Program-made: the position numbers and the translations under genes
In this document: positions 25,228 through 51,756 of the stretch, piece after piece
Layout: every line of letters begins with the position of its first letter
Position numbering within the stretch: position 1 is the stretch's first letter
IMG/VR virus record: IMGVR_UViG_3300025327_000015
DNA from: a virus
Lineage: Duplodnaviria > Heunggongvirae > Uroviricota > Caudoviricetes
Strand: one strand, 5' to 3'
Length of the DNA: 64,000 nucleotides
The notes under the pieces: model-generated
Database searches by the model: none
What the model saw: only the letters and a program-made list of their open reading frames with translations
What the model was told of the DNA's origin: nothing

Positions 25228-25256
25228 ACTGAAAAGACCCGCTACGGCGGGTCTTT
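25228..25256 (+). terminator. Rho-independent terminator
   Basis: agacccgc-tacg-gcgggtct hairpin followed by TTTTCTTT. Confidence 0.55.
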
Positions 25257-25321
25257 TCTTTGATATCATTACTATCGGCTGGGCCGAAGAGCGTGGTTCA
25301 TCTCCTTATAAGAGAGAGGTC

Positions 25322-25372
25322 ATTGGTTCGAATCCAATCATTGCCTTGGGTGATGTAGCTCAGTGGTAGAGC
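25322..25372 (+). ncRNA. permuted tRNA-like module: T-arm + acceptor-3' strand, 2-3 nt loop, acceptor-5' strand + D-arm (candidate Y RNA tRNA-mimic domain)
   Basis: attgg-ttcgaat-ccaat then cattgcc / tt(g) / ggtgatg ta gctc agtggta gagc; the two acceptor strands pair 7/7 with two G-U. Confidence 0.45.
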
Positions 25373-25605
25373 GCTAAAGCTCCACACTCATTTCATGCCC
25401 GCCCTATACACTTTGATTCGCCTCCGGCAAGAGGCGATGAGAGATGGGCCGAAGAGGAATTGTTCTCACTGGTCAAAGCGGCAAGGCCCCGAAGTACGCC
25501 GCACGGAGCACTAGTGGCTCCGTAAGATCGATTCTTCACACCACGCCCTCTCTCTGTTAGATTTACTCCTGCGAATGGGTCGAAGTGAATGGTTCATCCG
25601 GTACT

Positions 25606-25690
25606 ACCGGGGTAGCTCAAGGGTAGAGCACTGGCTTAGAGCCAGAGGTTAGTGGTTCGAATCCACTCCTAGAACAACCATTGACATAAC
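25606..25690 (+). ncRNA. tRNA-like element (D-arm, anticodon-like hairpin with loop cttagag, T-arm) lacking a pairable acceptor stem
   Basis: gctc-aagggta-gagc; ctgg-cttagag-ccag; agtgg-ttcgaat-ccact; flanking 7-mers accgggg and cctagaa are not complementary. Confidence 0.3.
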
Positions 25691-25705
25691 ACATCCTTCG
25701 CTTTT

Positions 25706-26209
25706 ATGGGTTATCATCGGCCCATGCGGTCAGTTGAAGAGCGTTTCTGGGAGAAAGTAGATCGCTCAGGAGACTGCTGGCTTTGGATCGGCACAAAAGA
25801 CAAGCACTACGACTATGGTCGCTTTCGCATTGGAACAAAATCAACTGACAAGAAAGAGCGTGCTCACCGTGTAGCATGGATGTTGATTTTTGGCCCAATC
25901 CCAGATGGCATGTGGGTACTTCATCACTGTGATAGACCTGCCTGTGTTCGTCCAGAGCATCTCTTCCTCGGCACAAACTCAATGAATCAAAAAGATGCAT
26001 ATCGTAAAGGTAAACATGACTATCTTCACAAACAAGGTCGCAATAGCGGAGAAAAAAATGGAAGCTCGCGACTTACTAAAGAACAAGTTCTGGAAATACG
26101 TACAAGTCATAAGTCACAGTATGCGCTCGCAAAACGATTTGGAATCTCACAGCCAGCTATCTCATACATCCGATCAGGGAAGACCTGGCGACACTTGCTA
26201 GAGTGCTAA
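25706..26209 (+). CDS. HNH endonuclease with C-terminal HTH
   Basis: HRVAWMLIFGPIPDGMWVLHHCDRPACVRPEHLFLGTNSMN HNH_3 motif; similar to 8583..9038 product. Confidence 0.65.
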   Translation: MGYHRPMRSVEERFWEKVDRSGDCWLWIGTKDKHYDYGRFRIGTKSTDKKERAHRVAWMLIFGPIPDGMWVLHHCDRPACVRPEHLFLGTNSMNQKDAYRKGKHDYLHKQGRNSGEKNGSSRLTKEQVLEIRTSHKSQYALAKRFGISQPAISYIRSGKTWRHLLEC

Positions 26210-26334
26210 TTGCGAGTGGGCCGGAGGATCTACGGGTTATCTTCTGTCAAAAGACAACCCCGTATCCGTAATCACGCCCCTCGTCTGCTAATCTCCTGAG
26301 CGCGAGTGGGTCGAACGAGATTCGGTTCTCCCGT

Positions 26335-26390
26335 CATTGGTTCGATTCCAATCGCGCCCATATCACGGGCGCGTAGCTCAGTTGGTAGAC
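26335..26390 (+). ncRNA. permuted tRNA-like module upstream of rsr (candidate Y RNA tRNA-mimic domain)
   Basis: attgg-ttcgatt-ccaat cgcgccc a / tatcac / gggcgcg ta gctc agttggta ...; acceptor strands perfectly complementary; followed by tcctc-GGAA-gagga tetraloop hairpin. Confidence 0.45.
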
Positions 26391-26601
26391 GCAGAGTCCT
26401 CGGAAGAGGAACCCCCGAACTCACAACATATCCCTCGCGATTTGCATCGCTTTCTGTAGATGTGGTACAGTTACAACTGCTACTGAGCCGAAGGGTCAGT
26501 CGGTTATCTTGGCAATAAGAGCAGCCCGTGACGCTCGGGACACCCGACTCCCACACCATGCTCGTAGCTTCAAATCAACTCTTGCCGGGAGGTACAACAC
26601 G

Positions 26602-28182
26602 ATGTCTGATTATCTGACTCGCTACGGAACACGCGTCACGCCGCAGTCTGAGCGGATGCGTGAAGATCAGGTTCTCAACGAAGCTGGCGGCTTTGTTTGG
26701 GAGATCGACGCCTGGGCGCGGATGCGTCGTTTCCTAATTCTCGGAAGCGAAGGGGGATCGTATTACGCTTCCGAATTCCAGGCAACGAAGGATTCGGCTG
26801 CTGCTGTACGCCAGTGCATCAAGGAAGATGGTCTGCGTGCAGTAAAGGAGATCGTAGAAATCTCGCAGAAGGGCCGGGCTCCAAAGAATGATCCGGCACT
26901 CTTTGCGCTTGCCTGCGCGATTTCACTGGGTGATAAGGAAACGCGCTCGGCAGCTGCTGAGGCGCTACCTCTTGTCGCCCGTATTGGAACACATCTCTAT
27001 CATTTCGCCGCCTACGCGGAGACGATGCGCGGTTGGGGCCGGACGATGCGCTGGGCTGTTCAGAACTGGTATGACCGCAATCCCGAGCAGCTTGCACTTC
27101 AAGCGATCAAGTATCGTCAGCGAGATGGCTGGTCGCACCGTGATCTCTTGCGCCTAGCACATCCTTCTCGAAATGAAGAGACAGCTTCGCTCTTTAACTG
27201 GATCACGAAGGGTGTTCCAGAGGAAGGCAAATCTCTATCTGAAATCGTGGGAGGTTTTGAGCAGGCACAAAGCGCTACCACGCCACAGATAACGGCAAAT
27301 CTTGTCCGCGAGTATGGTCTACCACGCGAAGCACTCCAGACTGAGCATCTGAACTCGAAGGAAGTCTGGGCTGCGCTTCTAGAGATGCAGATGCCGATGA
27401 CGGCCATGCTACGTAATCTGGCCACCATGACACGAGTCGGAATTCTCGACTCGAATGATCATCGCAAGCTGGTTCTGAATGCCTTCGATAACCAGGAGGC
27501 GATCACAAACTCGCGTCTGCATCCGCTCGCCATTCTGATCGGAATGGAGACGTATGCACAGGGACACGGTATGCGTGGTCAGCATACTTGGAGCCCAATC
27601 GCTTCCATCGTGGACGCTCTCGACGGTGCTTTCTATAAGGCGTTCGGGAACGTGCAGCCTACTGGCAAGCGCCTACTCGTAGGTGTGGATGCTTCTGGAT
27701 CGATGCGAAGCGGAGTGATCGCAGGTGCTCCAGGAATGATGCCGGTTAAGGCAGCAATGGCAATGGCGCTCGTTTTCACTGCCACCGAGCAGGATGTCGA
27801 AACGGTGCTCTTCGATACCTCACTCTCGACATTCCCACTCTCTGCTCGACAGCGACTGGACGACGTTGTTCGTCGCCATCCAGGCCATGGACGAGGAACA
27901 GATGTCGCGCTTCCGATGCAATACGCAACAGCGAAGAACCGGCAGGTTGATGGCTTCGTTCTTCTAACGGATATGCAGACTTGGGCTGGTTATCAGCATC
28001 CAGCACAGGCGCTTCAGCAGTATCGCGAGCGTAGCGGTATTCCAGCACGCCTTGCCAGCGTCGCACTGATTGCTAATCGCTGGCAGGTGGCAGATCCACA
28101 AGATCCGCTAGCCTTCGAAGCAATCGGATTCGACACCGCTACACCAGAACTCGTTTCCGGCTTCGTTGCTGGTGAGTTCTAA
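26602..28182 (+). CDS. rsr: Ro60/Rsr ortholog (TROVE domain + vWA domain)
   Basis: Collinear similarity to human Ro60 throughout ([26 protein letters not shown] vs [75 protein letters not shown] MIDAS); GGGAGG RBS 7 nt upstream of ATG. Confidence 0.9.
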   Translation: [526 protein letters not shown]

Positions 28183-28355: not shown

Positions 28356-28916
28356 ATGAAAAAAATCCCAACCATTTTTGAGCGCGACTGGGAGGGAGAT
28401 CGCTCGCGGGTTCTCAATCGAATTGTTCCCGGTTGCGAATGGGTATTCACTGGTGAGGGCATCGCTACGCGCAAATACGACGGCAGCGCTTGCATGGTCG
28501 AAGACGGTGTGCTCTGGAAGCGGCATGAGGTTCGTAAAGGAAAGCAAACTCCCGAGGACTTTCGTCTTGTTGAGGATGACTTGGAAACCGGCAAGACAGT
28601 CGGATGGATTCCCGTGAGCGACGGTCCGGAGGATAAATGGCATCGGGACGCTTTCGCCCGCGATATGACTCTGGCAGACGGAACCTATGAACTAGTTGGA
28701 CCAAAAGTTCAGGGCAATCCTGAGGGCTTCGAGCAGCACACTCTCATTCGTCATTCAGATGCTGAAACGTTTATCGTCTTGCGGCGTACTTTTGAAAGAA
28801 TCCGCGATTTGATCTCTGAACTCGATGTGGAAGGCTTCGTCTTCCAGCATCCTGACGGACGCATGGCGAAAATCAAAGGACGAGATTTCGGAATCAAACG
28901 TTCGAGTAAAGAATGA
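28356..28916 (+). CDS. small ATP-dependent nucleotidyltransferase, ligase family (KxDG ligase, RNA-ligase-like)
   Basis: Motif I KYDGSAC, motif IV EGFVFQ, motif V MAKIKGRD; 186 aa; stop overlaps next start (ATGA). Confidence 0.55.
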   Translation: MKKIPTIFERDWEGDRSRVLNRIVPGCEWVFTGEGIATRKYDGSACMVEDGVLWKRHEVRKGKQTPEDFRLVEDDLETGKTVGWIPVSDGPEDKWHRDAFARDMTLADGTYELVGPKVQGNPEGFEQHTLIRHSDAETFIVLRRTFERIRDLISELDVEGFVFQHPDGRMAKIKGRDFGIKRSSKE

Positions 28917-29284
28917 AACATTATACTCCTATAGGATGGATTTCTGAGCCAGAAGATGCGATTAAAGGCTGGGGTAACGAAGACGACTACAAAGATGTTC
29001 TTGAACAACTTAATACGACACCAGAAGATTTCCTATCAGCTGTCGTATATTCACTTACTTGGAATCTTAAAGACGCTGCTGCCTCGATTACAGGTATCTA
29101 CTGTGATCAATGGTGTGGAGTAGCTGGCAGCGGCGCCCCTCTTGAGACGCACGGTCTTCTCGCGATGACGGGAGAAGAGGGGAAGATAAATACTTGGTTT
29201 CAATGTGATAAACCTGAATGGGGAGTCGCAGCGACTTGGAAAGCCTTTGTAGAAAAGTTTGGGCTGCGAACGCAGGATGATTAA
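28913..29284 (+). CDS. hypothetical protein translationally coupled to ligase
   Basis: 123 aa; ATGA overlap with upstream gene. Confidence 0.35.
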   Translation: MKHYTPIGWISEPEDAIKGWGNEDDYKDVLEQLNTTPEDFLSAVVYSLTWNLKDAAASITGIYCDQWCGVAGSGAPLETHGLLAMTGEEGKINTWFQCDKPEWGVAATWKAFVEKFGLRTQDD

Positions 29285-30003: not shown

Positions 30004-30013
30004 AATCTGATTT

Positions 30014-30343: not shown

Positions 30344-30730
30344 TTATTCAGGATATGTCTGATTCAGCCATTTGATACCACGTACTTGAATAATGAAAGC
30401 AATCTCTGACTGAGAAAGTCGTTTGCGCAGCATCTTTCGCTCACGATATCTGACATCACTTTCTCGTGAATCAATCAGATCATGGCAAGCTCTACAAAGA
30501 GGCACAATATTTGCATGTGCATTACGTACCATACGCAGATGCACAGGCTGCTTAAGAAACCATGATTCAGCGACAAGATGATGCCTGGTAAGTGGGCGCA
30601 CAAATGCGGGCCGAAGACACATTCGACAATGACCTTCAGCCCGCATTTTGTGTTCCGTCGTCTTCGGCGATTGCAGCGATACCGAAGGACGAGGAGCCCA
30701 GCGGTGCTCGATAACGAGCTTTCTGCTCAT
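30344..30730 (-). CDS. HNH endonuclease
   Basis: CRMC...TRHHLVAESWFLK...NIVPLCRACH. Confidence 0.55.
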   Translation of the reverse strand: MSRKLVIEHRWAPRPSVSLQSPKTTEHKMRAEGHCRMCLRPAFVRPLTRHHLVAESWFLKQPVHLRMVRNAHANIVPLCRACHDLIDSRESDVRYRERKMLRKRLSQSEIAFIIQVRGIKWLNQTYPE

Positions 30731-31179
30731 CCAAGAACCTTTCGCACCGCCGCCTCCGGCAACCAGTAAATCTTGTCAGACGGATTTTCGACGGCAGCCG
30801 TCAGCGCGACGGCAGCCAGAATATCACCGTCGAGCTTCGCCTTCTCAATCAGATACCAGCCGTAGCGCCGACGAATCTTGATTGGGATATCGGTGAGACG
30901 GACTCCTGCAACCGCCCCACCATTCCGGTCGGGCGTCACAGTGTCCTCCTTTGCGTTTAGCCCGAAAAGTCCTTGATGGGATTTTCGCTTTGGCGCTCGC
31001 AGTTATCCTGGAGCGTTTTTGCGATTGATCCTGCAAACTCGATACCGACCAACTCGTCTAGTAACGAGAAATCGAGTGTTATTCCCTCATGCGGGAATGT
31101 CGAGTAGGCCCAAGCTCTGGATGGCTTGAGCCTCAGATACAGGACTTCTCCGGTGTCATAACGCATGACGCTCATTGAC

Positions 31180-31249
31180 ACGGCTGGTAGGAATCGAACC
31201 CACTTCGTACCGGGTTGGAGCCGGACGAGACACCATGTCTCAGCCGTAT
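31180..31249 (-). tRNA. tRNA-Trp-like (anticodon CCA) with compact D-arm
   Basis: Acceptor acggctg/cagccgt perfect; anticodon stem ccgg/ccgg loop ctccaac; T-arm gtggg-ttcgatt-cctac. Confidence 0.45.
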
Positions 31250-31326
31250 AGTGGGCGGATTTTTCGAAGACCAGCACCGTCCAGCTGGCTTACGAACAGA
31301 TGCCTCGTGAGACATCTACCTTCTAG

Positions 31327-31402
31327 TAGCGCGCCTGGGAGTCGAACCCAGAGACTTCGGCTTATGAGGCCGACGCAGGAAGTCCGGTCCTGCTCGCGCG
31401 CA
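31327..31402 (-). tRNA. tRNA-Met (anticodon CAU)
   Basis: D-stem gcag/ctgc, anticodon stem tcggc/gccga loop ctcataa, T-arm ctggg-ttcgact-cccag, acceptor 6/7 bp with terminal mismatch. Confidence 0.55.
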
Positions 31403-31550: not shown

Positions 31551-32468
31551 ATGTGGTATGTGCTAACAGTTCTCGCTGGACTAATCATCGTAATAAGTTT
31601 GACGCTTGGATTGGTACTGGGCGGCTCTCGTGCATTTGAAGATAGAGCCGGTCGTCAACAGACGACACCCGATTGGCGCAAGATGGGATTCGCTATCGCA
31701 AGCGGAACCGCAGTTACATACGTTCTGTTGTCGATGCTATTCATCTGGCATTCTGTGGAAGCAGGACATGTCGGGCTAGTACGTGCGTTTGGTGCATATA
31801 CCGGCGTCAAAGAAGCAGGACTAGTTACAACTTGGCCATGGGAATCTATCGAAGAGGCCCGCATCCGCAATGCGTCTCATGAGTTGCTCATGGATGGCGG
31901 AGTCAATGGATCAGCCGCGAGTCAAGAATCACAAGAAGTATTTGTGGTTGCCACGATCAACTATTCACTAGAGAAATCGTGCGTGCAGGAGTTGTATACC
32001 AACTATGGAGCGGCGTATTACGAGACGATCATTGAACCAAGAGCGAAACAGCTATTCAAGGCGGAATCGGTGAAGTTCTCGGCAGTTGATATTCTGCCCA
32101 ATCGTGAGAAGATCCGGCGTGAAACACAGAGTGAATTAGCAAAGCAGTTGGATCAGTTCTGCGTTCGAGGACTGGATTTTCTTTTGACGAATGTCGGTTT
32201 TAGTCCAGAGTTCACTGCAGCTATCGAAGAGAAGCAGGTGGCGACACAGCAGGCCGCTGCTGAAAAGAACCGCGTAGAGATTGCCAGGCAGCAGGCTAAG
32301 CAAGTTGTCATCGCAGCGGAAGCGGACCGTAAAGCGTTCTTCAAGCGTCAGCGCAATCTGACTCCACTGCTCGTAGAATGGGAACGCATCCAGAAGTGGC
32401 AGCCTCAGATCATCTATCTCCCCAGTGACACGATCATCGGACTTCCTGGTCTAGAGAGTAATAGATGA
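31551..32468 (+). CDS. SPFH/band-7 (prohibitin/HflK-like) membrane protein
   Basis: N-terminal TM helix then VGLVRAFGAYTGV...VFVVATINYSL... SPFH core and C-terminal coiled-coil. Confidence 0.65.
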   Translation: MWYVLTVLAGLIIVISLTLGLVLGGSRAFEDRAGRQQTTPDWRKMGFAIASGTAVTYVLLSMLFIWHSVEAGHVGLVRAFGAYTGVKEAGLVTTWPWESIEEARIRNASHELLMDGGVNGSAASQESQEVFVVATINYSLEKSCVQELYTNYGAAYYETIIEPRAKQLFKAESVKFSAVDILPNREKIRRETQSELAKQLDQFCVRGLDFLLTNVGFSPEFTAAIEEKQVATQQAAAEKNRVEIARQQAKQVVIAAEADRKAFFKRQRNLTPLLVEWERIQKWQPQIIYLPSDTIIGLPGLESNR

Positions 32469-43642: not shown

Positions 43643-43693
43643 TCATGAGAGGATAATTCCCCTAGCGGTCGGATCATCGAGTCTGTGGACTTT

Positions 43694-44583: not shown

Positions 44584-44585
44584 GA

Positions 44586-45233
44586 TTACCGAGGCACCGT
44601 AGGATCATTGGGATGCGGCTTAATGCGCCGAGCGCCATAGGACTCTTGATAGTAAGGATCTCTCCAATCTCCAGAGGCCAGACTTTCGATACATGGCCGT
44701 TCTACTCGGTCCCACTCATAGCCCATATTGAGAACAGCAGGCGAGAAAAAACTGTCTTCAGACCAACCTGGAGGGTATTTAGGCCAGGGAGTCTCGTCCC
44801 AACGTAATCCCTGATCCCATAATTCACGGCGGATAACGCAGTTACCTCCGGTGTTTTGCGCGACAAACAGTTCTTCTTCATCTGTTCGTAGTCCGAGTTG
44901 CCCTAGTTTAGAATTTGCCTCGAACATACGCTGAGTCTCCTCGCACCAGCCGGGGAGGAAACGGAAATCATTATCGGAACGATGAAGAAAGATAGCATCT
45001 TTCGGTGCTCGTTCCCAGCCTCGATTACAAGCAAAACCTGGATAATGATTCTCATTCAAAAGATAGATTCCATAATCAAACTGATTGAGCAACCACTGAC
45101 GCAGATCTTCATCTGATCTGTTATCAACCACCACCAAAGTAAAAGGAACAGTTACAGTCTCTAAATAGCTTCCAATCGTCTGTTTAGTTAGTTCTAGACG
45201 ATTGTAAGTGACAACAACTGTATGAAGTTTCAT
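44586..45233 (-). CDS. glycosyltransferase family 2
   Basis: MKLHTVVVTYNRLELTKQTIGS...LVVVDNRSDED. Confidence 0.65.
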   Translation of the reverse strand: MKLHTVVVTYNRLELTKQTIGSYLETVTVPFTLVVVDNRSDEDLRQWLLNQFDYGIYLLNENHYPGFACNRGWERAPKDAIFLHRSDNDFRFLPGWCEETQRMFEANSKLGQLGLRTDEEELFVAQNTGGNCVIRRELWDQGLRWDETPWPKYPPGWSEDSFFSPAVLNMGYEWDRVERPCIESLASGDWRDPYYQESYGARRIKPHPNDPTVPR

Positions 45234-45960
45234 CTTCTTCTCTTTACCAATCTATGCCGGAAACGTTTTCCAGAATTAACTTCCATCCAATTAGAAGGAT
45301 AATGATCGGGGAAAAGTTGACTCCCAATCTCATAGTGCCAACCAAGTCTTGTTAAATGATCCGCACCTCGATGTCGAGAACGCTGATCCCAATACGCGAC
45401 ATAGACAGCTTCTGGAACCTTTATTACTTGCGCACCTGCTTTATAGCAACGCGCCCAAAGTGACCAATCTTCATAAGCATTTGAACCTGGAGGATCTCCA
45501 TAATCGATGAATCCACCAACCCGAAAGAAAAGATCGCGTGGAATTAGCGTACCGATGACAAGCCAATTACCAGACTCAAAAGGAACAGCAGGCCAGATTT
45601 TGGGCGGTCGTGCTCGTCCACCCTGCACATAAGAGACAGCAGGCGTGAGCAGGAGAGGAGTGCCGTCATCTCTACTCTCCCGCTCAAAAGCCCGCTGCAT
45701 AGCCTCGACATAGCCAAGGCTAAGAGTGTCGTCACCGTCACAGAAAATCAGCGCATCACCTTTTGCCCTCTCAGCTAGTCCATTTCTCACTGAAGAAACA
45801 GTGCCCCCTGGAGCATGGTCTATTAAGACTTCAGCGTCTTGAGCACGAGCAGAAGGTAGCGCCCGTTCCTCTGCTAAACGGCGCCATTCATCTGACCCAT
45901 AGGTCCCAATACAAATAGAAACTCTTATAAGACGATCTGCTCTTCCATAACAGCAAGCTG
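45230..45960 (-). CDS. glycosyltransferase family 2 (5' end extended beyond ORF-track call; exact start unresolved)
   Basis: Track ORF begins at GTG 45790 with DXD motif (ALIFCDGDD) at residue 17; same frame stays open upstream and encodes the expected GT2 N-terminus (RVSICIGTYGSDEWRRLAEERALPSARAQDAEVLIDHAPGG), overlapping the 3' end of ORF 45925..46311. Confidence 0.5.
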
Positions 45961-46229
45961 ATCTTCAAGATCTCGAATCAATTGATCAAGATCTTCTCTA
46001 ATGTCAACTTCGGGAGTTTCTACCGCCAAGCGGTAAGCAACAGCCTGATCTCGCAAAGCACGAGTGCCTCCAAGAACGATTTGATTCATCGTCCTGACTA
46101 CCTCAATCTGCTCTGCTTGAAGATCTTCGATCATCTTCTGCTGGATACGTATGAACTCACTCTGACGTCTAGCAAGCTCAATTGCCTTCTCCAGCTCGAT
46201 CAAACCCATGAGACGGCGTAGTAAATTTC

Positions 46230-46961
46230 TCATCTTCGGGGGTGAGTATATCGCCTTCTGCGTCTCCTGATGATCGAGAGTTCTTGAGGCAGGAGACCGA
46301 CATAGCCCCACTGCTCCGCTCGATCCCAGAAGAGTTCCTGATCAACGCCGAAGTTAAGACGACCCTTCTCATATGTCGCATCTTGTGGCGCTGTTCCCCA
46401 GGCAGGATGGCGATGCACAATCTCTGCATTCTGAGCAAATGCCCATTGTTTACGAGCCTGTGCCAAATGACACAACTCACGATCAACAAAGTTATGATCA
46501 TAACTCTCTGAAACAAGAATCCCAGGACCATCCAACGATCCTCCTTGCTCTTCCACATACGAACGTCGCACAAGAGGATGAGTCGAAAATTGTCCTTTCA
46601 CCACGAGTCTATTGGCCTTATCATTTGTACCAATTACCCCAGCTCCAGTAGCTTCTGCCATTTGAAGGGTAAGTTCATCCCAGCCCTGCTTGAAATCAAG
46701 ATCATCAGAAGCAAGAAGAAGAAAGGGCTGTTCGGTGCGCTCAAAGCCTTTGTTCATCTTCTTCGGATACTGATGTTGTTCTCCAAAGTCAGCTACAAGT
46801 ACATCTTCTCCTGTTGCAAGACAAGCCTCAATCTGGGCTTCATCTCCCTCAGAACAAAGGAAAAGTGTCCGACAAGACACCGAAGATGACTGCATAAGAG
46901 ACACGATAAGTGGCTCAGCATTTTGAGGACGAGCTAGTACAGGAATCAGAACATCAATCAC
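46230..46961 (-). CDS. GT-A fold glycosyltransferase
   Basis: LLLASDDLDF DXD motif, MIDVLIPVLARP N-terminus. Confidence 0.5.
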   Translation of the reverse strand: MIDVLIPVLARPQNAEPLIVSLMQSSSVSCRTLFLCSEGDEAQIEACLATGEDVLVADFGEQHQYPKKMNKGFERTEQPFLLLASDDLDFKQGWDELTLQMAEATGAGVIGTNDKANRLVVKGQFSTHPLVRRSYVEEQGGSLDGPGILVSESYDHNFVDRELCHLAQARKQWAFAQNAEIVHRHPAWGTAPQDATYEKGRLNFGVDQELFWDRAEQWGYVGLLPQELSIIRRRRRRYTHPRR

Positions 46962-47195: not shown

Positions 47196-48734
47196 CTACG
47201 CCCTCGCTGCGTCTTGCCTTCTGCGACTGAAAGGACTCGAAATCCGCATTTTCTGTATCGGCCTCGATCTCAACCAATTCATACATTGCGACCACGCATC
47301 CACATCGTCGTCATGTGTGGCATTGGGAAAGAGCGCACATGAATTGATGAAGTCAACAATATCTGCCGGACAGTTCTTCTCATCTGGCATCGAAAGCTCA
47401 TCTGCGCCCAGCCTCCGTCCGGGAAGATAGCAGTTACCAGATTCAAGATCAGATGAGGCAGCTTCGGCACGAAGGATTTTGTCTCCCTCACCTTGATGGG
47501 AGAGCTTTTGCACACCTGTTAGCTCGCGTTTCAATTCGATAATGAGTTCTACTCCGTAACCGGCATTTTCAATCAGACAGTAGTGCGCCGCATGCGGGAA
47601 CATCTTCCGGACATAGCGCGCTTGCTCCAGAACGGCACGTTTGGCCTGGGTAAAATTCATATGTCCTTTTTTCAGGTCCAATAGATAGCGATCCGCTCCG
47701 ATGACTCCCCATGCCTGAATTGCGACCAGATCATTCGCTTCTTTGTCTTTCTGAGGCGTATCAATTGTTTGCACAACAGCACGAAAACGCGGCAAACGAG
47801 CCGGGTCTTGTAGAAGTTTCGGATCGTAGAAACGCCACCAGCTACGAAGAAGAATCTCTCCTTCTCGCGCAGCTGGCCGCTGTTGTAACTGCGCAGCAGC
47901 GCGGTGAGAAGTCATCCCCGCTGCCAAAGCATTAGAGGTCGTTTCATTCCGAAACTCAGGCCAAAGAAGATCCCCTTCGTTGCGAGGATCACGAGGCCAC
48001 AGTTGAGGATGATTGTGCTCAAAGCGTTCAGGAAGACAGAGAACTTCCCAACGCTCCTTTTCGAGTACGTGGCCAGCTAGATCATTTTGATGCAATCTCT
48101 GCATCACAATGATGCGCGCATGATCATTGCCGATCCCACGGGACTCGACGGTGCCGTCATACCAGTTATTCGTACTCCCGAGTACCGAACCTGACGTCGC
48201 ATCTGCTTCTCGGGCATTGACAGGATCATCGATAAGAATACGATGACCGTGCTCTCCCTGCCCCGTTGATTCAGGTGAAGTGGCTAGGCGCGTGCCACCG
48301 CGCGAATTGGTGAAGTAATACTCAGCATCTCTGATGAATTGAAGATCCCAACGCTCCTGATACCAATCAGACATCATGAGATCACGAGACATCGCAGCAA
48401 TACGACCAGAAAAACGAGTCTCATAGGAAGCACCCCAATACCGAATACTGGGACTGTGAGTCCATTCCCAAGCAGGCCAAAGAATAGAGACGATGAGTGT
48501 TTTCATAGAAACAGGTGGGACCCAAACCTGTAGACGTTTAATCTCCCCCCTGCTTACTGCCTCAAGGTATTCACACATGGCATCGATATGCCAGTTGTGA
48601 AGATAGATCTCATCGGGCTTTAGATTCGGCCAGGCGGCCAATACAAACTTACGAAACGACCTAGAAAGAATCTCGGCTTCTTCTTCTAGTTCTTTTCGTA
48701 CAAGCTCTTGCTCAAGAAAATCAAGAACTCCCAC
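47196..48734 (-). CDS. terminase large subunit
   Basis: ATPase core (KTLIVSIL Walker A-like, ILIDDPVN Walker B) and C-terminal nuclease (NATHDDDVDAW). Confidence 0.8.
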   Translation of the reverse strand: MGVLDFLEQELVRKELEEEAEILSRSFRKFVLAAWPNLKPDEIYLHNWHIDAMCEYLEAVSRGEIKRLQVWVPPVSMKTLIVSILWPAWEWTHSPSIRYWGASYETRFSGRIAAMSRDLMMSDWYQERWDLQFIRDAEYYFTNSRGGTRLATSPESTGQGEHGHRILIDDPVNAREADATSGSVLGSTNNWYDGTVESRGIGNDHARIIVMQRLHQNDLAGHVLEKERWEVLCLPERFEHNHPQLWPRDPRNEGDLLWPEFRNETTSNALAAGMTSHRAAAQLQQRPAAREGEILLRSWWRFYDPKLLQDPARLPRFRAVVQTIDTPQKDKEANDLVAIQAWGVIGADRYLLDLKKGHMNFTQAKRAVLEQARYVRKMFPHAAHYCLIENAGYGVELIIELKRELTGVQKLSHQGEGDKILRAEAASSDLESGNCYLPGRRLGADELSMPDEKNCPADIVDFINSCALFPNATHDDDVDAWSQCMNWLRSRPIQKMRISSPFSRRRQDAARA

Positions 48735-49282
48735 TACGCTGCCGCTTCCTGCGCATCACTCTGTTCACCAGCTTCAAGCTCAGGATATGAGACTTCATCA
48801 ATGATGTTCTCTTCATTATCAATTTCATTTAAAAGTTCATTTGCTCGTTCATTCTCTTTCGCTAGAGAGATAATTTGTCGAAGCTGTTCTGCACCCAGAT
48901 GCCCGAAGTGTTGATGGACAAGAGCTTCCAGATTCGTGTTGACATCGATACGCTGTGAGCGAAGAAACGCCCAATTCGGATCATGAATCATCATTTCTTT
49001 CTCAAGGAGTCGATCTGAGATCGTAAGCGCACGACCAAGCGCCGATTCACGAAGACGATCGAGAAGATTGTCTTCATGCTCACTCCCAACCTCAACAGCC
49101 TGGTCATAACAACGAGCAAAGCGCTCGTCATAATGGACACTATTCGGATTACAGAGTTTGCGAAAATCAGAGCCGGTCAAGTCCTCTCTAGTCATCCGCG
49201 CTGCCTCTGGGCGAATGTAACCCTGCCGGATATATTCGAGAAAGTCGAGTTTCTGCTCTTGGGTAATCGCTGATCCACGCAC
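48734..49282 (-). CDS. terminase small subunit candidate
   Basis: 182 aa gene abutting terL start; acidic C-terminus. Confidence 0.4.
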   Translation of the reverse strand: MRGSAITQEQKLDFLEYIRQGYIRPEAARMTREDLTGSDFRKLCNPNSVHYDERFARCYDQAVEVGSEHEDNLLDRLRESALGRALTISDRLLEKEMMIHDPNWAFLRSQRIDVNTNLEALVHQHFGHLGAEQLRQIISLAKENERANELLNEIDNEENIIDEVSYPELEAGEQSDAQEAAA

Positions 49283-49574
49283 GCTGCGAGTGTAGCGCGG
49301 GTTCAGGACTTCACTCTTGCGCTTTATTACAATTTCTGGTAGAAATACTTAAATGGATACCGCGATTCTCGAACGTCACTTCAAGGAGATGGGGGCACGA
49401 GTCAAGACTCGCATGTCTGAAATGGCTCTGGCGTCATCGCCACTCGCCCGACGGTGAGCATGCCCACTGCCCGCATTGCGACAAGAAGCGAAACTTCCGT
49501 CGCTACCAGACGAAGCGGCCTCGACAGTTGAGGGATGCGGCTCCTTCCGAGTCGCCCTCTAGGCTGTCACCACC

Positions 49575-50471
49575 ATGAGCTTCATGCTTGATGGTAATCC
49601 CAAGATGCCCGCGGGAGGTTCGGTCCTTGAGGGCGACGCCGCCGCGCTCCTGCAAACTCTTCCGGCATCGGCGATCCAGACCATTATTACAAGCCCTCCG
49701 TACTATGGTCAGCGCGATTACGGTGCGCCCGGCCAGCTTGGAGCCGAACCCACTCCTGAGGAGTATGTGGCGCGTCTCACTCTGATACTCGATGAGTGTA
49801 AGCGAGTTTTGAGTGACTCTGGAACGCTCTGGCTAAATCTAGGTGATAAGTATCGCGGCGGCGAGCTACTTGGCATGCCGTGGCAAGTAGCGCTCGCTTT
49901 GAAGAAAGCTGGTTGGAGACTTCGTTCTGACATAATTTGGCACAAGCCGAACGCTATGCCGCACTCGGTTCGCAATCGACCTACAGTTGACCACGAGTAT
50001 ATCTTCCTGTTTTCAAAGTCTGAGAGCTATTACTTCGACCAAGACGCTATTCGCGAACCGCATCGAACGTTCACTGACGCCAGCCGCATGCGAGGTGGCA
50101 GAAACCACTTCGGTGTGCGGGGAGGAACACCCGAGAGCGGGAAGAACGGTGGCTCATCGAACTTGCACGACGGACGGTGGGATCAGGCATTTCATCCTAA
50201 GGGGCGAAACCGAAGGACAGTCTGGGAGATACCCCTGTCCAAGTTCCGCGACACGCACTTTGCGGTGTTTCCAGAAGAGCTGGTGCGACGGTGCATACTG
50301 GCTGGCTCGGCGCCTAATGATTATGTGCTTGACCCGTTTGCCGGTAGCGGGACGACTCTTGTCGTCGCTGACCGCCTCGGTCGACGGGGTCTAGGTATCG
50401 ACATAAGCGCGAAGTACTGCGAGATGGCTCGTGGCCGAATTGCCGGACAGCAACTGGAGCTGTCGTCCTAA
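49575..50471 (+). CDS. DNA methyltransferase (N6-adenine/N4-cytosine, beta class)
   Basis: IITSPPYYGQRDYG (motif IV SPPY) precedes LDPFAGSGTT (motif I). Confidence 0.8.
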   Translation: MSFMLDGNPKMPAGGSVLEGDAAALLQTLPASAIQTIITSPPYYGQRDYGAPGQLGAEPTPEEYVARLTLILDECKRVLSDSGTLWLNLGDKYRGGELLGMPWQVALALKKAGWRLRSDIIWHKPNAMPHSVRNRPTVDHEYIFLFSKSESYYFDQDAIREPHRTFTDASRMRGGRNHFGVRGGTPESGKNGGSSNLHDGRWDQAFHPKGRNRRTVWEIPLSKFRDTHFAVFPEELVRRCILAGSAPNDYVLDPFAGSGTTLVVADRLGRRGLGIDISAKYCEMARGRIAGQQLELSS

Positions 50472-50775
50472 CGGCGCTAGGTTAGCTGTGCGAAATGAGG
50501 GAGCGCGTAAAGGTTTACGTTCAGCCCATTTGCGGAGACGCACCCTGTCCAGATGATGACGATCCGTCATCCGGTGCGCTCATCGTGCGTCGGATCACAG
50601 TAGACGGCGGCGAGATTCCATTCACGAAAGCACGCATCGAAACGAACGCCCAAGAATTCGTCTCCGTTGTTTTGGAACTCATTCCTGGCGGGATCGAGAT
50701 TCTCAGCAAAAGTAATCCCTGGGAAGAAGTAACATGAGCTTCATGTACCCAACCCGCACAACCTAGCCCTCGCGC

Positions 50776-51075
50776 TTGCGAGGGCGTTATCGGGAGGTAC
50801 ATATGAAGCGCTGGCACGAAGAACGTGTCCTTATGCTCCGTCGTTGGAAGATGGAGATGGAAAAGCACGACTATGACTGGCGCAATCCACCGGATCCGAA
50901 GTGCGATAAGCGAGCTTGCCATTGTGCGGCAGGAATCGGTTCAATGAGGAAACGGCGTCCTTATGACTGTGGGAATCCTCGCTGTGGCCTCTGTCACTTC
51001 GAGAAGTTCTGGATTCGCAAGAATCGCTATAACAAATTACGCAAGATCATCGAATTCGAGTTGGAGGTGTCCTAA
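50776..51075 (+). CDS. Cys-rich small protein
   Basis: CDKRACHCAAG...CGNPRCGLCHFEKF; TAATG overlap with next gene. Confidence 0.3.
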   Translation: MRGRYREVHMKRWHEERVLMLRRWKMEMEKHDYDWRNPPDPKCDKRACHCAAGIGSMRKRRPYDCGNPRCGLCHFEKFWIRKNRYNKLRKIIEFELEVS

Positions 51076-51756
51076 TGGAAGGCGTCATTATTGAAATCCG
51101 CGCAGCTGAAGGCGGTGACGATGCAAAAGATCTTGTCAAAGAACAGTTTTCTGTTTACATCACCTACTGCAAAAGAAGGCGTCTTTGACTATTCAATACT
51201 TGATGAGCGATCTGGAATGATCGTTGCTGAGATCCTTGGCGACGAGGCAGAAGTAGCATTTAGCAATGAATCCGGTGGTCATCGTTGGCAACGCATTCCA
51301 CCGAATGAGAAACGAGGTCGGCGTCATACCTCAACTGTCACCGTCGCTGTCTTCCCGATTATTCCTCCCCAAGATTGGGAATTTTCTGAAGGTGAGATCG
51401 AATGGGAGGCCATCTTAGGCACGGGTCCAGGAGGTCAGGCCCGCAATAAAACAGCAAATGTCATTCGAGCCACACATCTTCCAACGGGCATCTCAGTACG
51501 GATCTCAGATTCACGCTCACAGTGGCAAAATCGTCAGACTGCGTTTCGTTCTCTCGCAGCTCGTATCTCCGCTTACCATAAAGATGAACATTTGAAACGA
51601 GAAGCAAAAGAACGCCGAGAGCAGATCGGAAGTGGAATGCGAGGAGACAAGATTCGTACTGTCCGTCTACAAGATGGACGAGTTGTAGATCATCGAAGCA
51701 AGAAGAAGATGTCAATCGAACGCTATCTAGCCGGGCATCTCGAAGATCTGCACTAG
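51075..51756 (+). CDS. class I release factor homolog (PrfH/RF2-like, GGQ motif) requiring +1 frameshift at 51183..51189
   Basis: Frame 0 (ATG 51075) encodes MEGVIIEIRAAEGGDDAKDLVKEQFSVYITYCKRRRL then TGA; +1 frame continues DYSILDE...GTGPGGQARNKTANVIRATHLPTGISVRISDSRSQ; slip site CGU CUU UGA C with AGAAGG 3 nt upstream. Confidence 0.7.

What the first reader, a model, noticed from the sequence alone, without database searches (positions are those of the whole stretch)
25250..51756. Unusual concentration of RNA-maintenance functions in one phage genome
The segment carries Rsr, two permuted tRNA-mimic RNAs, a KxDG ligase with RNA-ligase-type motifs, six tRNA genes (Ser x2, Met, Trp, Glu, Asp) and a frameshift-regulated PrfH-like factor. 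Each is individually rare in phages. Together they suggest a counter-defence against host anticodon nucleases, ribotoxins or abortive-infection RNases.
Basis: inference. Interest (0 to 1): 0.75.

Follow-up and report, generated by a model that had tools for sequence, protein, structure and literature searches.

The report
Phage RNA-repair island plus frameshift-gated release factor
An uncultivated ~109-kb phage carries a Ro60/Y-RNA RNA-repair island with an RNA ligase and tRNAs, plus a shortened release factor made only when the ribosome slips at a stop codon; that stop-gated factor turns out to be widespread and apparently undescribed.

Summary
All the listed elements are real, with corrections. 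Rsr (26602-28182) is preceded by six Y-RNA-like genes, not two. An RLIG1-type RNA ligase (28356-28916) and four tRNAs follow it. tRNA-Glu and tRNA-Asp lie at 58 kb, outside the stated range, and about 19 kb of structural and glycosylation genes separate the RNA loci.

The "PrfH-like" factor (51075-51756) does need a +1 shift at CUU UGA C. By sequence and predicted fold it is RF1 without domain 1, not PrfH.

Co-conservation exists but is confined to this lineage. L045 has tRNAs, RFx, Y RNAs, Rsr and ligase adjacent. L214 has RFx, tRNAs, Y RNAs and Rsr. L046 has RFx next to RtcB. Most backbone relatives, and most Rsr, ligase or RFx loci elsewhere, lack the combination.

The unexpected result concerns the short RF1-like family. 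It is common in phage tRNA islands and in Myxococcota. About 88% of 146 distinct members need recoding at a stop codon near codon 37: a prfB-like +1 frameshift on UGA, UAG or UAA, or an in-frame stop. I found no description of this in the papers I could search.

A counter-defence role is plausible but untested. I rate it a new variant of a known kind.

The parts
25231..25258 (+). Strong intrinsic-terminator-like hairpin immediately upstream of the Y RNA array. It marks the left boundary of the island.
   Evidence: 12-bp stem followed by a T run.
25277..25403 (+). Y RNA 1. YrlA-type, with a permuted tRNA-like module (T-arm, closed stem, D-arm) at 25315-25375.
   Evidence: Rfam YrlA 33.7 bits, E 1.7e-4. 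5' motif TGGGCCGAAG..GGTTCATC. Fold. Basal-stem covariation.
25439..25554 (+). Y RNA 2. Ro-binding stem and no tRNA-like module.
   Evidence: 10 of 10 basal-stem pairs. Fold z = -3.3. Motif.
25571..25701 (+). Y RNA 3. Ro-binding stem enclosing an unpermuted tRNA-like core (D-arm, short stem with a 5-nt loop, T-arm) at 25605-25675.
   Evidence: Rfam tRNA positions 6-65 only, 42.9 bits. ARAGORN calls it 'tRNA-Leu(tag)'. Fold. Homologous elements in L045, L022 and L214.
25706..26209 (+). HNH homing-type endonuclease inserted in the middle of the Y RNA array.
   Evidence: Pfam HNH_3 E 2.6e-14. Relatives lie next to rsr in 11 of 80 phage Rsr loci.
26212..26284 (+). Y RNA 4. Minimal, 73 nt.
   Evidence: Motif TGGGCCGGAG..GGTTATC. 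Fold z = -2.9.
26301..26439 (+). Y RNA 5. YrlA-type permuted tRNA-like module at 26328-26397.
   Evidence: Rfam YrlA 29.3 bits. 10 of 10 basal pairs.
26479..26568 (+). Y RNA 6. It lies directly upstream of rsr and is conserved in L022, L045 and L214.
   Evidence: Motif. blastn conservation. Sequence comparison.
26602..28182 (+). rsr, the Ro60 orthologue (526 aa from the ATG with a GGAGG Shine-Dalgarno). The longer TTG ORF starting at 26509 overlaps Y6 and is unlikely to be the real start.
   Evidence: Pfam TROVE and vWA_Ro60. NCBIfam Rsr 494 bits. 42-47% identical to actinophage Ro-like proteins.
28356..28916 (+). RLIG1-type ATP-dependent RNA ligase (5'-P/3'-OH), 186 aa, with catalytic K40 in KYDG.
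   Evidence: phrog_14301 E 5.7e-61. PDB 9c6l RLIG1 E 2.4e-14; K40 aligns to the Lys that is mutated in 9c6m. Invariant K40, D42, G43, E112, K117, E159, G160, K172, K174.
28913..29284 (+). orf123. Unknown function. Its start overlaps the ligase stop.
   Evidence: No Pfam, NCBIfam or PHROG match. No similarity to the gene following the ligase in phage Collard.
30014..30184 (+). tRNA-Ser(UGA) and tRNA-Ser(GCU).
   Evidence: ARAGORN. A pair of tRNA-Ser genes also precedes RFx in L214.
30344..30730 (-). Second HNH endonuclease.
   Evidence: Pfam HNH E 2e-5. Homologues in L045, L300 and L301.
31177..31402 (-). tRNA-Trp(CCA) and tRNA-Met(CAU).
   Evidence: ARAGORN. Rfam tRNA 28.8 and 42.4 bits.
31551..32468 (+). 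SPFH/Band-7 protein. Possible member of the island; unproven.
   Evidence: Pfam Band_7 E 1.5e-23. An SPFH homologue lies within 10 kb of rsr in only 1 of 80 loci.
50803..51075 (+). orf90, a Cys-rich small protein. Its stop overlaps the RFx start codon (TAATG).
   Evidence: Sequence. A homologue (50% identical) lies beside the ligase in L045.
51075..51185 (+). RFx ORF0, 37 codons (MEGVIIEIRAAEGG...KRRRL), ending at the slippery CTT.
   Evidence: ORF0 is called separately with a weak PCRF hit in 5 of the 7 listed assemblies.
51183..51189 (+). +1 frameshift site CTT TGA C. A weak SD-like GAAGG lies 3 nt upstream.
   Evidence: The same codon position is used in 95 of 165 related loci and 68 of 80 bacterial-genome loci.
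51187..51756 (+). RFx ORF1, 189 codons. It carries the PPN (PxT-position) motif, GGQ and the C-terminal part of RF1 domain 4.
   Evidence: NCBIfam RF1 196 bits, RF2 134 bits, PrfH 93 bits. PDB search. AF2 model pLDDT 86. Foldseek RF1 TM 0.90.
58012..58195 (-). tRNA-Glu(UUC) and tRNA-Asp(GUC), outside the stated interval.
   Evidence: ARAGORN. Rfam 47.8 and 54.5 bits.

Best explanation
The window is part of a ~109-kb uncultivated phage that carries a toolkit for keeping RNA and translation working. It has two physically separate parts.

Part A (25.2-32.5 kb) is a plus-strand island inserted between the minus-strand capsid and portal genes. It holds six Y-RNA-like genes, the Ro60 orthologue Rsr, an RLIG1-type RNA ligase and four tRNAs, and it is peppered with two HNH homing endonucleases. 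The Y RNAs comprise two YrlA-type, one with an unpermuted tRNA-like core, and three plain. By analogy with the bacterial rsr-yrlBA-rtcBA operon, the Rsr/Y-RNA particle would capture damaged or misfolded structured RNA. The ligase would reseal breaks that have 5'-phosphate and 3'-OH ends, and the tRNAs would replace lost host species. This part of the mechanism is inferred.

Part B (50.8-51.8 kb) encodes RFx, an RF1-type class-I release factor lacking domain 1. Its full-length synthesis requires a prfB-style +1 slip at CUU UGA C. Slipping competes with termination, so the factor would be made in proportion to how poorly UGA is being terminated in the infected cell. This follows from sequence and from the known prfB mechanism; it was not measured.

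In the closest relatives, RFx sits directly beside tRNAs, Y RNAs, Rsr and a ligase (RLIG1-type or RtcB). I therefore read A and B as parts of one functional theme that has been split in this genome. The theme is to sustain or rescue translation when RNA or termination capacity is compromised, most plausibly during host RNase-based defence.
For: Identity of the parts.

Y array:
- The motif is enriched (6 copies against 0.1 expected).
- It contains the GNCGAAN0-1G Ro-binding motif of PMC4201824.
- The basal stem is 92% paired, and 9 of 10 pairs show compensatory changes. The covariation score is 0.76, against 0.25 for shuffles and 0.13-0.23 for slid controls.
- Arrays of seven Y RNAs occur in backbone relatives L022 and L025.

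Ligase family activity: several RLIG1 homologues, drawn from a set that included a 'C. phage RLIG1', ligated tRNA halves (PMC11494293). The Cellulophaga phage homologue is 42% identical to the window ligase.

The frameshift is real:
- The site is identical in 7 assemblies.
- ORF0 is conserved at the protein level.
- The shift falls at the same codon in 95 of 165 loci, with SD-like GGAGG upstream, and in 68 of 80 bacterial loci.

Linkage:
- L045: tRNAs, RFx, Y, Rsr, RLIG1, orf90, with a portal 50% identical.
- L214: tRNA, RFx, tRNA, Y, Rsr.
- L046: RFx next to RtcB.
- L101: RFx and Rsr in one tRNA island.
- tRNA density around RFx genes is 0.55-0.75 per kb, against 0.008 per kb in control phage loci.

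Insertion: the portal-to-capsid gap is 11.2 kb here and 1.6-6.5 kb in relatives.

Literature frame: PMC7824862, PMC6514570, PMC9304027.
Against: - In this genome RFx is 23 kb from Rsr and the ligase.
- Most backbone relatives lack all of these genes at the equivalent positions.
- In the wider families the partners are not linked. None of the 6 nearest ligase loci has Rsr. Of 80 Rsr loci, none has the ligase, 1 has an RF and 1 has RtcB. Only about 4 of 160 RFx loci have Rsr or RtcB within 10 kb.
- No polynucleotide kinase or phosphatase was found among the window proteins I scanned (a subset). A 5'-P/3'-OH ligase cannot directly repair the cyclic-phosphate/5'-OH ends left by PrrC-, colicin- or HEPN-type nucleases.
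- RFx keeps RF1 decoding residues, so unlike PrfH it may simply terminate at UAA and UAG. The phage itself ends 33 of 59 genes with TGA, which an RF1-type factor would not serve.
- No defence or RNase target is identified, and the host is unknown.
Confidence: 0.5

Rival explanations
1. General translation support, not counter-defence. RFx and the tRNAs are ordinary members of the 'translation islands' that large phages accumulate to keep elongation and termination efficient as host machinery decays or codon demand shifts. Rsr/Y RNA and the ligase are independent cargo that happen to sit in the same hypervariable, homing-endonuclease-rich regions.
For: - RFx genes lie inside tRNA arrays in most of about 160 loci.
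- They are rarely next to Rsr, a ligase or RtcB.
- Huge phages are already known to carry RF1 and RF2 along with many other translation genes (PMC7162821).
- Chromosomal copies in Nannocystis sit in ordinary cellular neighbourhoods with no repair genes.
- HNH endonucleases flank these genes, which is consistent with mobile cargo.
Against: In the nearest RFx clade, 4 of 8 genomes pair it with Rsr/Y RNA or RtcB, three of them by direct adjacency. That is hard to get by chance, given how rare these genes are in phages. Stop-codon gating points to conditional expression rather than constitutive support.
Confidence: 0.3
2. Host RNA demolition. The Rsr/Y-RNA particles recruit a host exoribonuclease, as the Deinococcus and Salmonella Rsr/Y RNA/PNPase machine does. 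They would degrade structured host RNA (rRNA, tRNA) for nucleotide recycling or host shut-off. The phage's own tRNAs and release factor would then replace what is destroyed.
For: - Rsr with Y RNA specialises PNPase for degrading structured RNA (PMC4201824 introduction).
- The unusually large array of six to seven different Y RNAs could address different partners or substrates.
- tRNAs and RFx are present in the same genomes.
Against: An RNA ligase immediately downstream of rsr, here and in L045, points to joining rather than destruction. RtcB next to Rsr in L371 points the same way. There is no phage nuclease partner and no evidence of host RNA degradation.
Confidence: 0.12
3. The split release-factor gene is a pseudogene or an assembly error, and only a truncated, inactive product (or none) is made.
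For: Gene callers report a 37-aa ORF and a 179-aa ORF rather than one gene. No experimental product is known.
Against: - The sequence is identical in 7 independent assemblies.
- Both halves are conserved at the protein level.
- The break is at the same codon, with CTT-stop-N and an upstream SD-like element, in 95 of 165 loci and 68 of 80 bacterial loci spanning 40-65% identity.
- The nearest neighbours share the same state in 134 of 146 cases.
Confidence: 0.02

Closest known systems
Salmonella rsr-yrlBA-rtcBA RNA-repair operon (Rsr, YrlA/YrlB Y RNAs, RtcB ligase, RtcA cyclase)
   Same: A Ro60 orthologue, several Y RNAs (some with a tRNA-like module) and an RNA ligase are encoded together on one strand. 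One phage Rsr locus (L371) even has RtcB adjacent.
   Different: - The ligase is an ATP-dependent RLIG1-type 5'-P/3'-OH enzyme, unrelated to RtcB (3'-P/5'-OH).
- No RtcA or RtcR was detected in the window proteins scanned.
- There are six Y RNAs instead of two.
- The system is phage-borne, with tRNAs and homing endonucleases interspersed.
Mycobacteriophage and actinophage Rsr with YrlA-like RNAs (Chen et al. 2014, PMC4201824)
   Same: Phage-encoded Rsr with an adjacent YrlA-type RNA carrying the GNCGAAN0-1G motif. Gordonia phage BearBQ has a Y1-like RNA upstream of its Rsr.
   Different: - Only 42-47% protein identity, in an unrelated phage backbone.
- An array of six RNAs of three architectures. 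Arrays of five or more were seen in only 3 of 80 other Rsr loci.
- A ligase immediately downstream, which is absent in BearBQ.
Bacterial PrfH-RtcB2 ribosome rescue and repair pair (Tian et al. 2022, PMC9304027)
   Same: A class-I release-factor paralogue lacking domain 1, genetically linked in relatives to an RNA ligase: RtcB in L046 and RLIG1-type in L045.
   Different: - RFx scores 93 bits on TIGR03072 (cut-off 167) and 196 bits on RF1.
- The model fits RF1 at TM 0.90 and PrfH at 0.69.
- RFx retains the RF1 decoding elements (Q, PxT-position tripeptide, HT), which PrfH has lost.
- Its gene carries a programmed frameshift. None is mentioned for prfH in PMC9304027 or PMC6514570.
prfB (RF2) autoregulatory +1 programmed frameshift
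   Same: The cassette is SD-like element, short spacer, CUU U, stop codon, usually +4 C. The mechanism is described in PMC12421855.
   Different: - It sits in an RF1-like gene, at codon 38 inside domain 2. In prfB it sits at codon 26 in domain 1 (my recollection).
- The stop is UGA in about 69%, UAG in about 28% and UAA in about 3% of frameshifted members. In prfB it is 98.6% UGA and never UAG in 8,164 genomes, and no frameshift is known for prfA.
- About a quarter of family members have in-frame stops in the same region instead.
T4 Pnkp/Rnl1 tRNA repair against the PrrC anticodon nuclease
   Same: A phage-encoded ATP-dependent 5'-P/3'-OH RNA ligase, from a family shown to join tRNA halves (PMC11494293), together with phage tRNAs.
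   Different: No kinase/phosphatase end-healing enzyme was found in the window proteins I scanned. The ligase is a minimal 186-aa RLIG1-type enzyme, not Rnl1 or Rnl2. It is coupled to Rsr and Y RNAs.
Translation gene sets of huge and jumbo phages (PMC7162821, PMC7824862)
   Same: tRNA arrays, release factors, RNA ligases and occasional Rot/TROVE proteins are known cargo of large phages. Many RFx loci are on 80-600 kb viral contigs.
   Different: Those surveys list 'RF1 and RF2'. The passages I retrieved by keyword do not mention the loss of domain 1 or the stop-codon gating. This phage is only about 109 kb.

Membership tests
Rsr / Ro60 (TROVE) | TROVE domain followed by the Ro60-type vWA domain | tested here: met
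   PF05731 E 2e-45 and PF25045 E 2.5e-44.
Rsr / Ro60 (TROVE) | Reaches the NCBIfam equivalog cut-off (NF041674, 900 bits) | tested here: not met
   494 bits over the full length, positions 3-525. It is a divergent orthologue, like other phage Ro-like proteins at 42-47% identity.
Rsr / Ro60 (TROVE) | Y RNA gene(s) encoded next to it | tested here: met
   Six Y-like RNAs lie within 1.3 kb upstream.
YrlA (Rfam RF02553) | Reaches the Rfam gathering score (69 bits) | tested here: not met
   33.7 and 29.3 bits, and only the tRNA-like core (model positions 23-86) aligns.
YrlA (Rfam RF02553) | Permuted tRNA-like module (T-arm, closed acceptor-like stem, D-arm) inside a Ro-binding stem that bears GNCGAAN0-1G | tested here: met
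   Alignment. The motif is described in PMC4201824 and is present in Y1 and Y5. Basal-stem covariation.
RLIG1-type RNA ligase (PF17720 / phrog_14301) | Catalytic lysine in KxDG, plus the downstream nucleotidyltransferase motifs | tested here: met
   K40-Y-D-G aligns to the Lys of Yasminevirus RLIG1, which is Met in the 9c6m mutant. E112, K117, E159-G160, K172 and K174 are invariant in 8 homologues.
RLIG1-type RNA ligase (PF17720 / phrog_14301) | Family model thresholds | tested here: inconclusive
   Pfam PF17720 gives 18.4 bits, below its 25-bit cut-off. The phage family phrog_14301 matches end to end at E 5.7e-61, and PDB RLIG1 matches at E 2.4e-14.
RLIG1-type RNA ligase (PF17720 / phrog_14301) | Joins 5'-phosphate and 3'-OH RNA ends, tRNA halves included | not testable with these tools
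   Shown for several bacterial and viral homologues, from a set that included a 'C. phage RLIG1', in PMC11494293. Not shown for this protein.
PrfH (TIGR03072) | Reaches the curated cut-off (166.65 bits) | tested here: not met
   92.7 bits; RF1 models score 193-196 bits.
PrfH (TIGR03072) | Lacks the N-terminal domain 1 of RF1/RF2 | tested here: met
   226 aa aligning to RF1 residues ~105-334. The upstream gene orf90 is unrelated. The model covers RF1 domains 2-4.
PrfH (TIGR03072) | Divergent rRNA-recognition domain in place of a stop-codon decoding domain | tested here: not met
   RF1 decoding positions are retained: Q, P-P-N (P-P-T in most relatives), E, H-T. TM to PrfH is 0.69 and to RF1 0.90.
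PrfH (TIGR03072) | Operon with RtcB2 | tested here: not met
   No RtcB was detected among the window proteins scanned. RtcB is adjacent only in relative L046.
RF1 (TIGR00019 / NF001859) | Curated cut-offs and full four-domain architecture | tested here: not met
   193-196 bits against cut-offs of 400-423. Domain 1 is absent.
RF1 (TIGR00019 / NF001859) | GGQ catalytic motif and PxT decoding tripeptide | tested here: inconclusive
   GGQ is present (G119-G120-Q121, invariant). The tripeptide is PPN in the window and PPT in most relatives. Stop-codon specificity is untested.
prfB-type +1 programmed frameshift | Slippery CUU U followed by a stop codon with a weak +4 base, with ORF1 in the +1 frame | tested here: met
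   CTT TGA C at 51183-51189.
prfB-type +1 programmed frameshift | Shine-Dalgarno-like stimulator a few nt upstream | tested here: inconclusive
   The window has only GAAGG with a 3-nt spacer. Most relatives have CGGAGGGGT directly upstream.
prfB-type +1 programmed frameshift | Conservation of the site across homologues | tested here: met
   Same codon in 95 of 165 phage or metagenome loci and 68 of 80 bacterial-genome loci.
prfB-type +1 programmed frameshift | Frameshift efficiency responds to release-factor level (autoregulation) | not testable with these tools
   Needs reporters or in vitro translation.

The most novel reading that the evidence does not exclude
The short RF1-like proteins form an undescribed class of auxiliary release factor, found in phage tRNA islands and Myxococcota chromosomes. 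Their synthesis is gated by failure to terminate at a stop codon near codon 37, either through a prfB-like +1 frameshift on UGA, UAG or UAA or through an in-frame stop. They would act as a sensor and responder for the cell's termination capacity. In this phage lineage the factor has been wired to a Rsr/Y-RNA/RNA-ligase module. The result would be a rescue-and-repair system that works like PrfH-RtcB but is built from non-orthologous parts.
Probability: 0.3. Interest if true: 0.85.

Novelty: new variant of a known kind. Interest (0 to 1): 0.7.

Why it matters
Phage RNA repair (tRNAs, ligases, Ro/Y RNA) is a recognised theme, but it is almost untested outside T4. This locus offers a compact, natural pairing of Rsr and Y RNAs with a member of the recently described RLIG1 ligase family. 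That pairing could help show what RLIG1-type enzymes and bacterial Y RNAs act on.

The release factor matters more. A 2025 survey found programmed frameshifting only in prfB, always on UGA or UAA and never on UAG, and found none in prfA (PMC12421855). Here an RF1-like family uses the same cassette at a different position and with all three stop codons, or uses in-frame stops instead, in about 88% of members.

If these sites sense termination capacity, that would be a second, independently evolved feedback circuit on translation termination. It would be carried by viruses, and it can be tested in cultured bacteria that have the gene: Nannocystis exedens DSM 71 and Thiobacillus denitrificans DSM 12475.

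Tried and rejected
- **Nucleotide search.** Megablast of the island against 50,697 phage records found nothing. The phage has no close sequenced relative; its TerL is at most 36% identical to cultured phages.
- **Single-protein scans.** IMG/VR scans for RFx and Rsr found nothing because no exact 8-mers are shared. Alignment-based scans were needed.
- **Metagenome scan.** It returned about 50%-identical relatives rather than the closest clade.
- **Genome-wide TGA recoding.** I tested whether in-frame TGA in some RFx genes reflects genome-wide TGA recoding, using stop-free ORF coverage under alternative codes. The measure did not separate the classes, so the test is inconclusive. No tRNA with a UCA anticodon was found in any locus.
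- **Gene after the ligase.** orf123 showed no similarity to the gene following the ligase in phage Collard.
- **Other RNA-related domains.** Pfam scans of 20 further window proteins found no additional RNA-related domains, only tail, glycosylation, methyltransferase and Clp_N hits.
- **Promoters and terminators.** Their counts in both islands are not above chance. I make no claim about transcription units beyond the one strong terminator at 25231-25258.
- **Missing paper.** Burroughs & Aravind 2016 (NAR gkw722) proposed Rot/TROVE and SPFH/Band-7 as RNA-repair scaffolds, as I recall it. It could not be retrieved, so the SPFH link rests on memory only.
- **Ruled out.** The frameshift is not an assembly artefact or pseudogene. 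The factor is not PrfH.

Full report
**What the window is.** The 64-kb window belongs to an uncultivated tailed phage of about 109 kb.
- Its release-factor fragment is found, with identical sequence, on 14 contigs from several JGI and ENA metagenomes. The longest are 108.7-109.6 kb.
- Nothing in 50,697 deposited phage records matches the island at the nucleotide level. The large terminase is at most 36% identical to cultured phages.
- Minus-strand genes for capsid (23088-24905), portal (36100-37896) and terminase (47196-48734) frame the region. Between portal and terminase lie lysis and glycosylation genes.
RNA-related genes occupy about 25.2-32.5 kb and 50.8-51.8 kb, and two further tRNAs lie at 58.0-58.2 kb.

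**Checking the listed elements.**
- *Rsr.* It is real. Pfam gives TROVE (E 2e-45) plus the Ro60-type vWA domain (E 2.5e-44). The NCBIfam Rsr model gives 494 bits over the full length, below its equivalog cut-off. The likely start is the ATG at 26602, which has a GGAGG upstream.
- *Permuted tRNA mimics.* The two modules are at 25315-25375 and 26328-26397. They align to the T-arm / closed stem / D-arm core of Rfam YrlA at 33.7 and 29.3 bits, under the gathering score of 69.
- *Ligase.* The 28356-28916 gene matches the phage family phrog_14301 'RNA ligase' end to end (E 5.7e-61). It matches the crystal structure of Yasminevirus RLIG1 at E 2.4e-14, and its K40 falls on the lysine mutated in entry 9c6m. 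K40, D42, G43, E112, K117, E159, G160, K172 and K174 are invariant among eight homologues. Several RLIG1 homologues, from a set that included a 'C. phage RLIG1', ligated tRNA halves with 5'-phosphate and 3'-OH ends (PMC11494293). The Cellulophaga phage phi10:1 protein is 42% identical to this one.
- *tRNAs.* ARAGORN finds Ser(UGA), Ser(GCU), Trp and Met inside the interval. Glu and Asp are at 58012-58195, outside it.

**The Y RNA array is larger than reported.**
- Six elements upstream of rsr share one 5' motif, T-GRGY-CGRA...GTT(N1-2)TC. The motif contains the GNCGAAN0-1G Ro-binding signature described for YrlA (PMC4201824).
- Each element closes with a complementary 3' strand ...CAC...RYYC-N5-6.
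- The composite motif occurs six times in 1.2 kb on the plus strand, plus once elsewhere in the window. About 0.1 is expected per simulated window.
- I aligned the 5' and 3' ends of 15 such RNAs from the window, L022 and L045. The basal stem is 92% paired, and 9 of 10 pairs show changes on both sides. The covariation score is 0.76, against 0.25 for shuffles (0 of 500 reach it) and 0.13-0.23 for slid controls. One caveat applies: I chose the 3' ends partly by complementarity.
- Y1 and Y5 carry the YrlA-type permuted module.
- Y3 carries an unpermuted tRNA-like core with a 5-nt 'anticodon' loop. ARAGORN mis-calls it tRNA-Leu(tag), and Rfam's tRNA model matches it only over positions 6-65. Both arrangements are known from YrlA and Deinococcus Yrn1.
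- Y2, Y4 and Y6 have no tRNA-like part.
- An HNH endonuclease gene sits in the middle of the array.
- Backbone relatives L022 and L025 have seven such RNAs before their Rsr. L045 has two and L214 at least three. Arrays of five or more were seen in only 3 of the 80 nearest IMG/VR Rsr loci.

**The release factor.**
- ORF0 (51075-51185, MEGVIIEIRAAEGG...CKRRRL) ends at CTT and is followed by TGA C. Reading resumes one base later (51187-51756) through the decoding and GGQ regions.
- The joined 226-aa protein scores 196 bits on RF1, 134 on RF2 and 93 on PrfH NCBIfam models. All are below their cut-offs. It aligns to RF1 residues ~105-334, which means domains 2-4 only.
- An AlphaFold model (pLDDT 86) superposes on ribosome-bound RF1 at TM 0.90 and rmsd 2.0 A. 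It fits RF2 at 0.83-0.85 and PrfH at 0.69.
- RF1's decoding positions are kept (Q, P-x-T position, E, H-T). The tripeptide is PPN here and PPT in most relatives.
- The factor shares PrfH's architecture, the loss of domain 1. It is not a member of the PrfH family.

**The frameshift is a family trait.**
- Protein and DNA searches recover a large family of ~225-aa proteins. Among them are 391 IMG/VR contigs, many from genomes of 80-600 kb.
- Across 165 loci, 95 need a +1 shift at exactly the same codon, 31 codons after the start of the EIRAAEGG motif.
- The sites are CTT TGA C (43), CTT TAG C (24), CTT TGA G (19), CTT TGA A (4), CTT TAA C (3), CTT TAG T (2) and TTT TAG C (1). Most are preceded by CGGAGGGGT, an SD-like element placed as in E. 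coli prfB.
- Among 146 distinct full-length members, 88 are frameshifted. Forty have one or two in-frame stops in the same 30-45-codon stretch, mostly TGA and often where RF1 has an aromatic residue. Only 18 are uninterrupted.
- Nearest neighbours share the same state in 134 of 146 cases.
- The family also occurs in bacterial genomes, chiefly Myxococcota such as Nannocystis exedens DSM 71. It is also in Thiobacillus denitrificans DSM 12475, Variovorax, Achromobacter and a Cupriavidus plasmid. There 68 of 80 are frameshift-type.
- The window site is identical in seven independent assemblies. This rules out an error or a pseudogene.
- For comparison, a 2025 survey of more than 12,000 genomes found the prfB frameshift stop to be 98.6% TGA and never TAG. 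It found no evidence of programmed frameshifting in prfA (PMC12421855).
- The release-factor review PMC6514570 contains neither 'phage' nor 'frameshift'. The retrieved passages of the huge-phage paper PMC7162821 list only 'release factor 1 and 2'.

Evidence against a link:
- Capsid and terminase relatives at 44-70% identity carry none of these genes at the equivalent places. The exception is L022/L025, with Y RNAs and Rsr between terminase and portal.
- The portal-to-capsid gap is 11.2 kb here and 1.6-6.5 kb in relatives, so the island looks like an insertion.
- None of the six nearest ligase loci has Rsr.
- Phage Collard has the ligase without Rsr nearby, and BearBQ has Rsr without a ligase nearby.
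- Among the 80 nearest Rsr loci there is no RLIG1-type ligase, one distant RF and one adjacent RtcB.
- Among about 160 RFx loci, only L045, L046, L101 and weakly L152 have Rsr or RtcB within 10 kb.

Evidence for a link, from the eight closest RFx relatives (57-65% identity):
- L045 has five tRNAs, an S12-like gene, tRNA-Glu, RFx, two Y RNAs, Rsr, the ligase (73% identical), the orf90 homologue, an HNH and tRNA-Met. Its portal is 50% identical to the window's.
- L214 has an HNH, tRNA-Ser x2, RFx, tRNA-Leu x3, three Y RNAs and Rsr (64% identical) at the contig end.
- L046 has tRNA-Ser, RFx, tRNA-Tyr, tRNA-Leu and RtcB.
- Across the whole family, RFx genes sit in tRNA arrays. Density is 0.55-0.75 tRNAs per kb within 5 kb, against 0.008 per kb in control phage loci.

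The link is therefore real in this lineage but not general. Rsr with Y RNA is the conserved core. tRNA islands are the usual home of RFx. Ligases (RLIG1 or RtcB) and RFx join them sporadically.

**Most likely mechanism.**
- *Shown.* The identities and anatomy above, the conserved recoding site, and the adjacency in relatives.
- *Inferred from known families.* Rsr/Y RNA particles bind damaged or misfolded structured RNAs. The ligase reseals 5'-P/3'-OH breaks. The tRNAs substitute for lost host species. Full-length RFx is made in inverse proportion to termination efficiency at its gating stop codon, as for prfB.
- *Speculative.* The trigger is host RNase-based defence.
- *Weak points.* No end-healing enzyme was seen among the window proteins I scanned, though 45 kb of the genome lies outside the window. 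RFx looks able to read only UAA and UAG, while the phage ends 33 of 59 genes with TGA and gates RFx with UGA. The host is unknown.
- *Open question.* The mixed use of UGA, UAG and UAA as gating codons, with no correlation to the PPT/PPN/PPS tripeptide, is unexplained. It could mean that the sites sense host RF1 or RF2. It could also mean that the factor reads all three stops.

**Verdict.**
- The island is a new combination within a known theme, phage RNA repair with Ro/Y RNA.
- The stop-codon-gated RF1-like factor is a new variant of a known regulatory device. It sits in a family that I could not find described, so it is the more interesting product of this follow-up.

Noticed in passing
Related loci L049-L203 (e.g. 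L115:9986-10660, L158:9986-10669): Forty of 146 distinct short-RF genes have in-frame stop codons instead of a frameshift. Most are TGA and some are TAG. They are confined to the stretch 30-45 codons after the EIRAAEGG motif and often fall where RF1 has F or W. No UCA-anticodon tRNA is nearby, and the test for genome-wide recoding was inconclusive.
   Followed up: partly
L286 (Nannocystis exedens DSM 71), L288, L292, L298, L260; L239 (Thiobacillus denitrificans DSM 12475): The frameshifted short RF also sits in bacterial chromosomes, especially Myxococcota. In Nannocystis it lies beside FemAB-like and ClpA/C-like genes with no tRNAs. In Thiobacillus it is embedded in an array of 31 tRNAs. These are cultured organisms in which the frameshift could be tested.
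   Followed up: partly
L045:2479-2781: A 100-aa gene with a ribosomal protein S12/S23 Pfam hit lies just upstream of tRNA-Glu and RFx in the relative that has the complete RFx/Y/Rsr/ligase cluster. PrfH contacts S12 on the ribosome (PMC9304027), so a phage S12-like protein next to a release factor is intriguing.
   Followed up: no
window 51941-52876: A VWA-domain protein (phrog_7371) lies immediately downstream of RFx, behind a near-consensus promoter-like site (TTGACA-16-TATCAT, 51762-51789). Homologues lie next to RFx in L063 and within 10 kb of rsr in 5 of 80 phage Rsr loci.
   Followed up: partly
window 53258-53833 (-): A stand-alone protein made of two Clp_N repeats lies 1.5 kb from RFx. 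In Nannocystis the chromosomal RFx is 1.7 kb from a ClpA/C-type ATPase that has a Clp_N domain. This may be coincidence.
   Followed up: no
window 25040-25262 (+): A ~220-nt GC-rich, highly structured non-coding stretch (MFE -109 kcal/mol) ends in the strong terminator at 25231-25258, between the capsid gene start and Y1. It has no Rfam family and no similarity in any fetched locus. It may be an unrelated small RNA.
   Followed up: partly
window 1323-3634 and 39709-46961 (-): Two blocks of glycosyltransferases, SAM methyltransferases, an asparagine-synthase-like protein and an NAD-dependent epimerase are interleaved with the structural genes. This suggests glycan modification of virions or of the host surface.
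   Followed up: no
window 31551-32468 (+): An SPFH/Band-7 protein closes the RNA island next to tRNA-Met and tRNA-Trp. From memory, Burroughs & Aravind 2016 proposed SPFH/Band-7 with a tRNA-like RNA as an RNA-repair scaffold. The paper could not be retrieved, and only 1 of 80 Rsr loci has an SPFH homologue nearby.
   Followed up: partly
window 25706-26209, 30344-30730; L328, L330, L332, L341 next to rsr: HNH homing-type endonucleases recur directly beside phage rsr genes (11 of 80 loci) and inside the Y RNA array here. This suggests the Rsr/Y RNA region is a hot spot for mobile endonuclease insertion or for cargo exchange.
   Followed up: partly
window 23088-24905 (-): The major capsid protein carries a long acidic low-complexity insert (D/E/G repeats, about residues 95-150) after its N-terminal segment.
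   Followed up: no
L371:136-3370: One IMG/VR phage contig has RtcB immediately upstream of Rsr. This is the same pairing as in the Salmonella RNA-repair operon.
   Followed up: no
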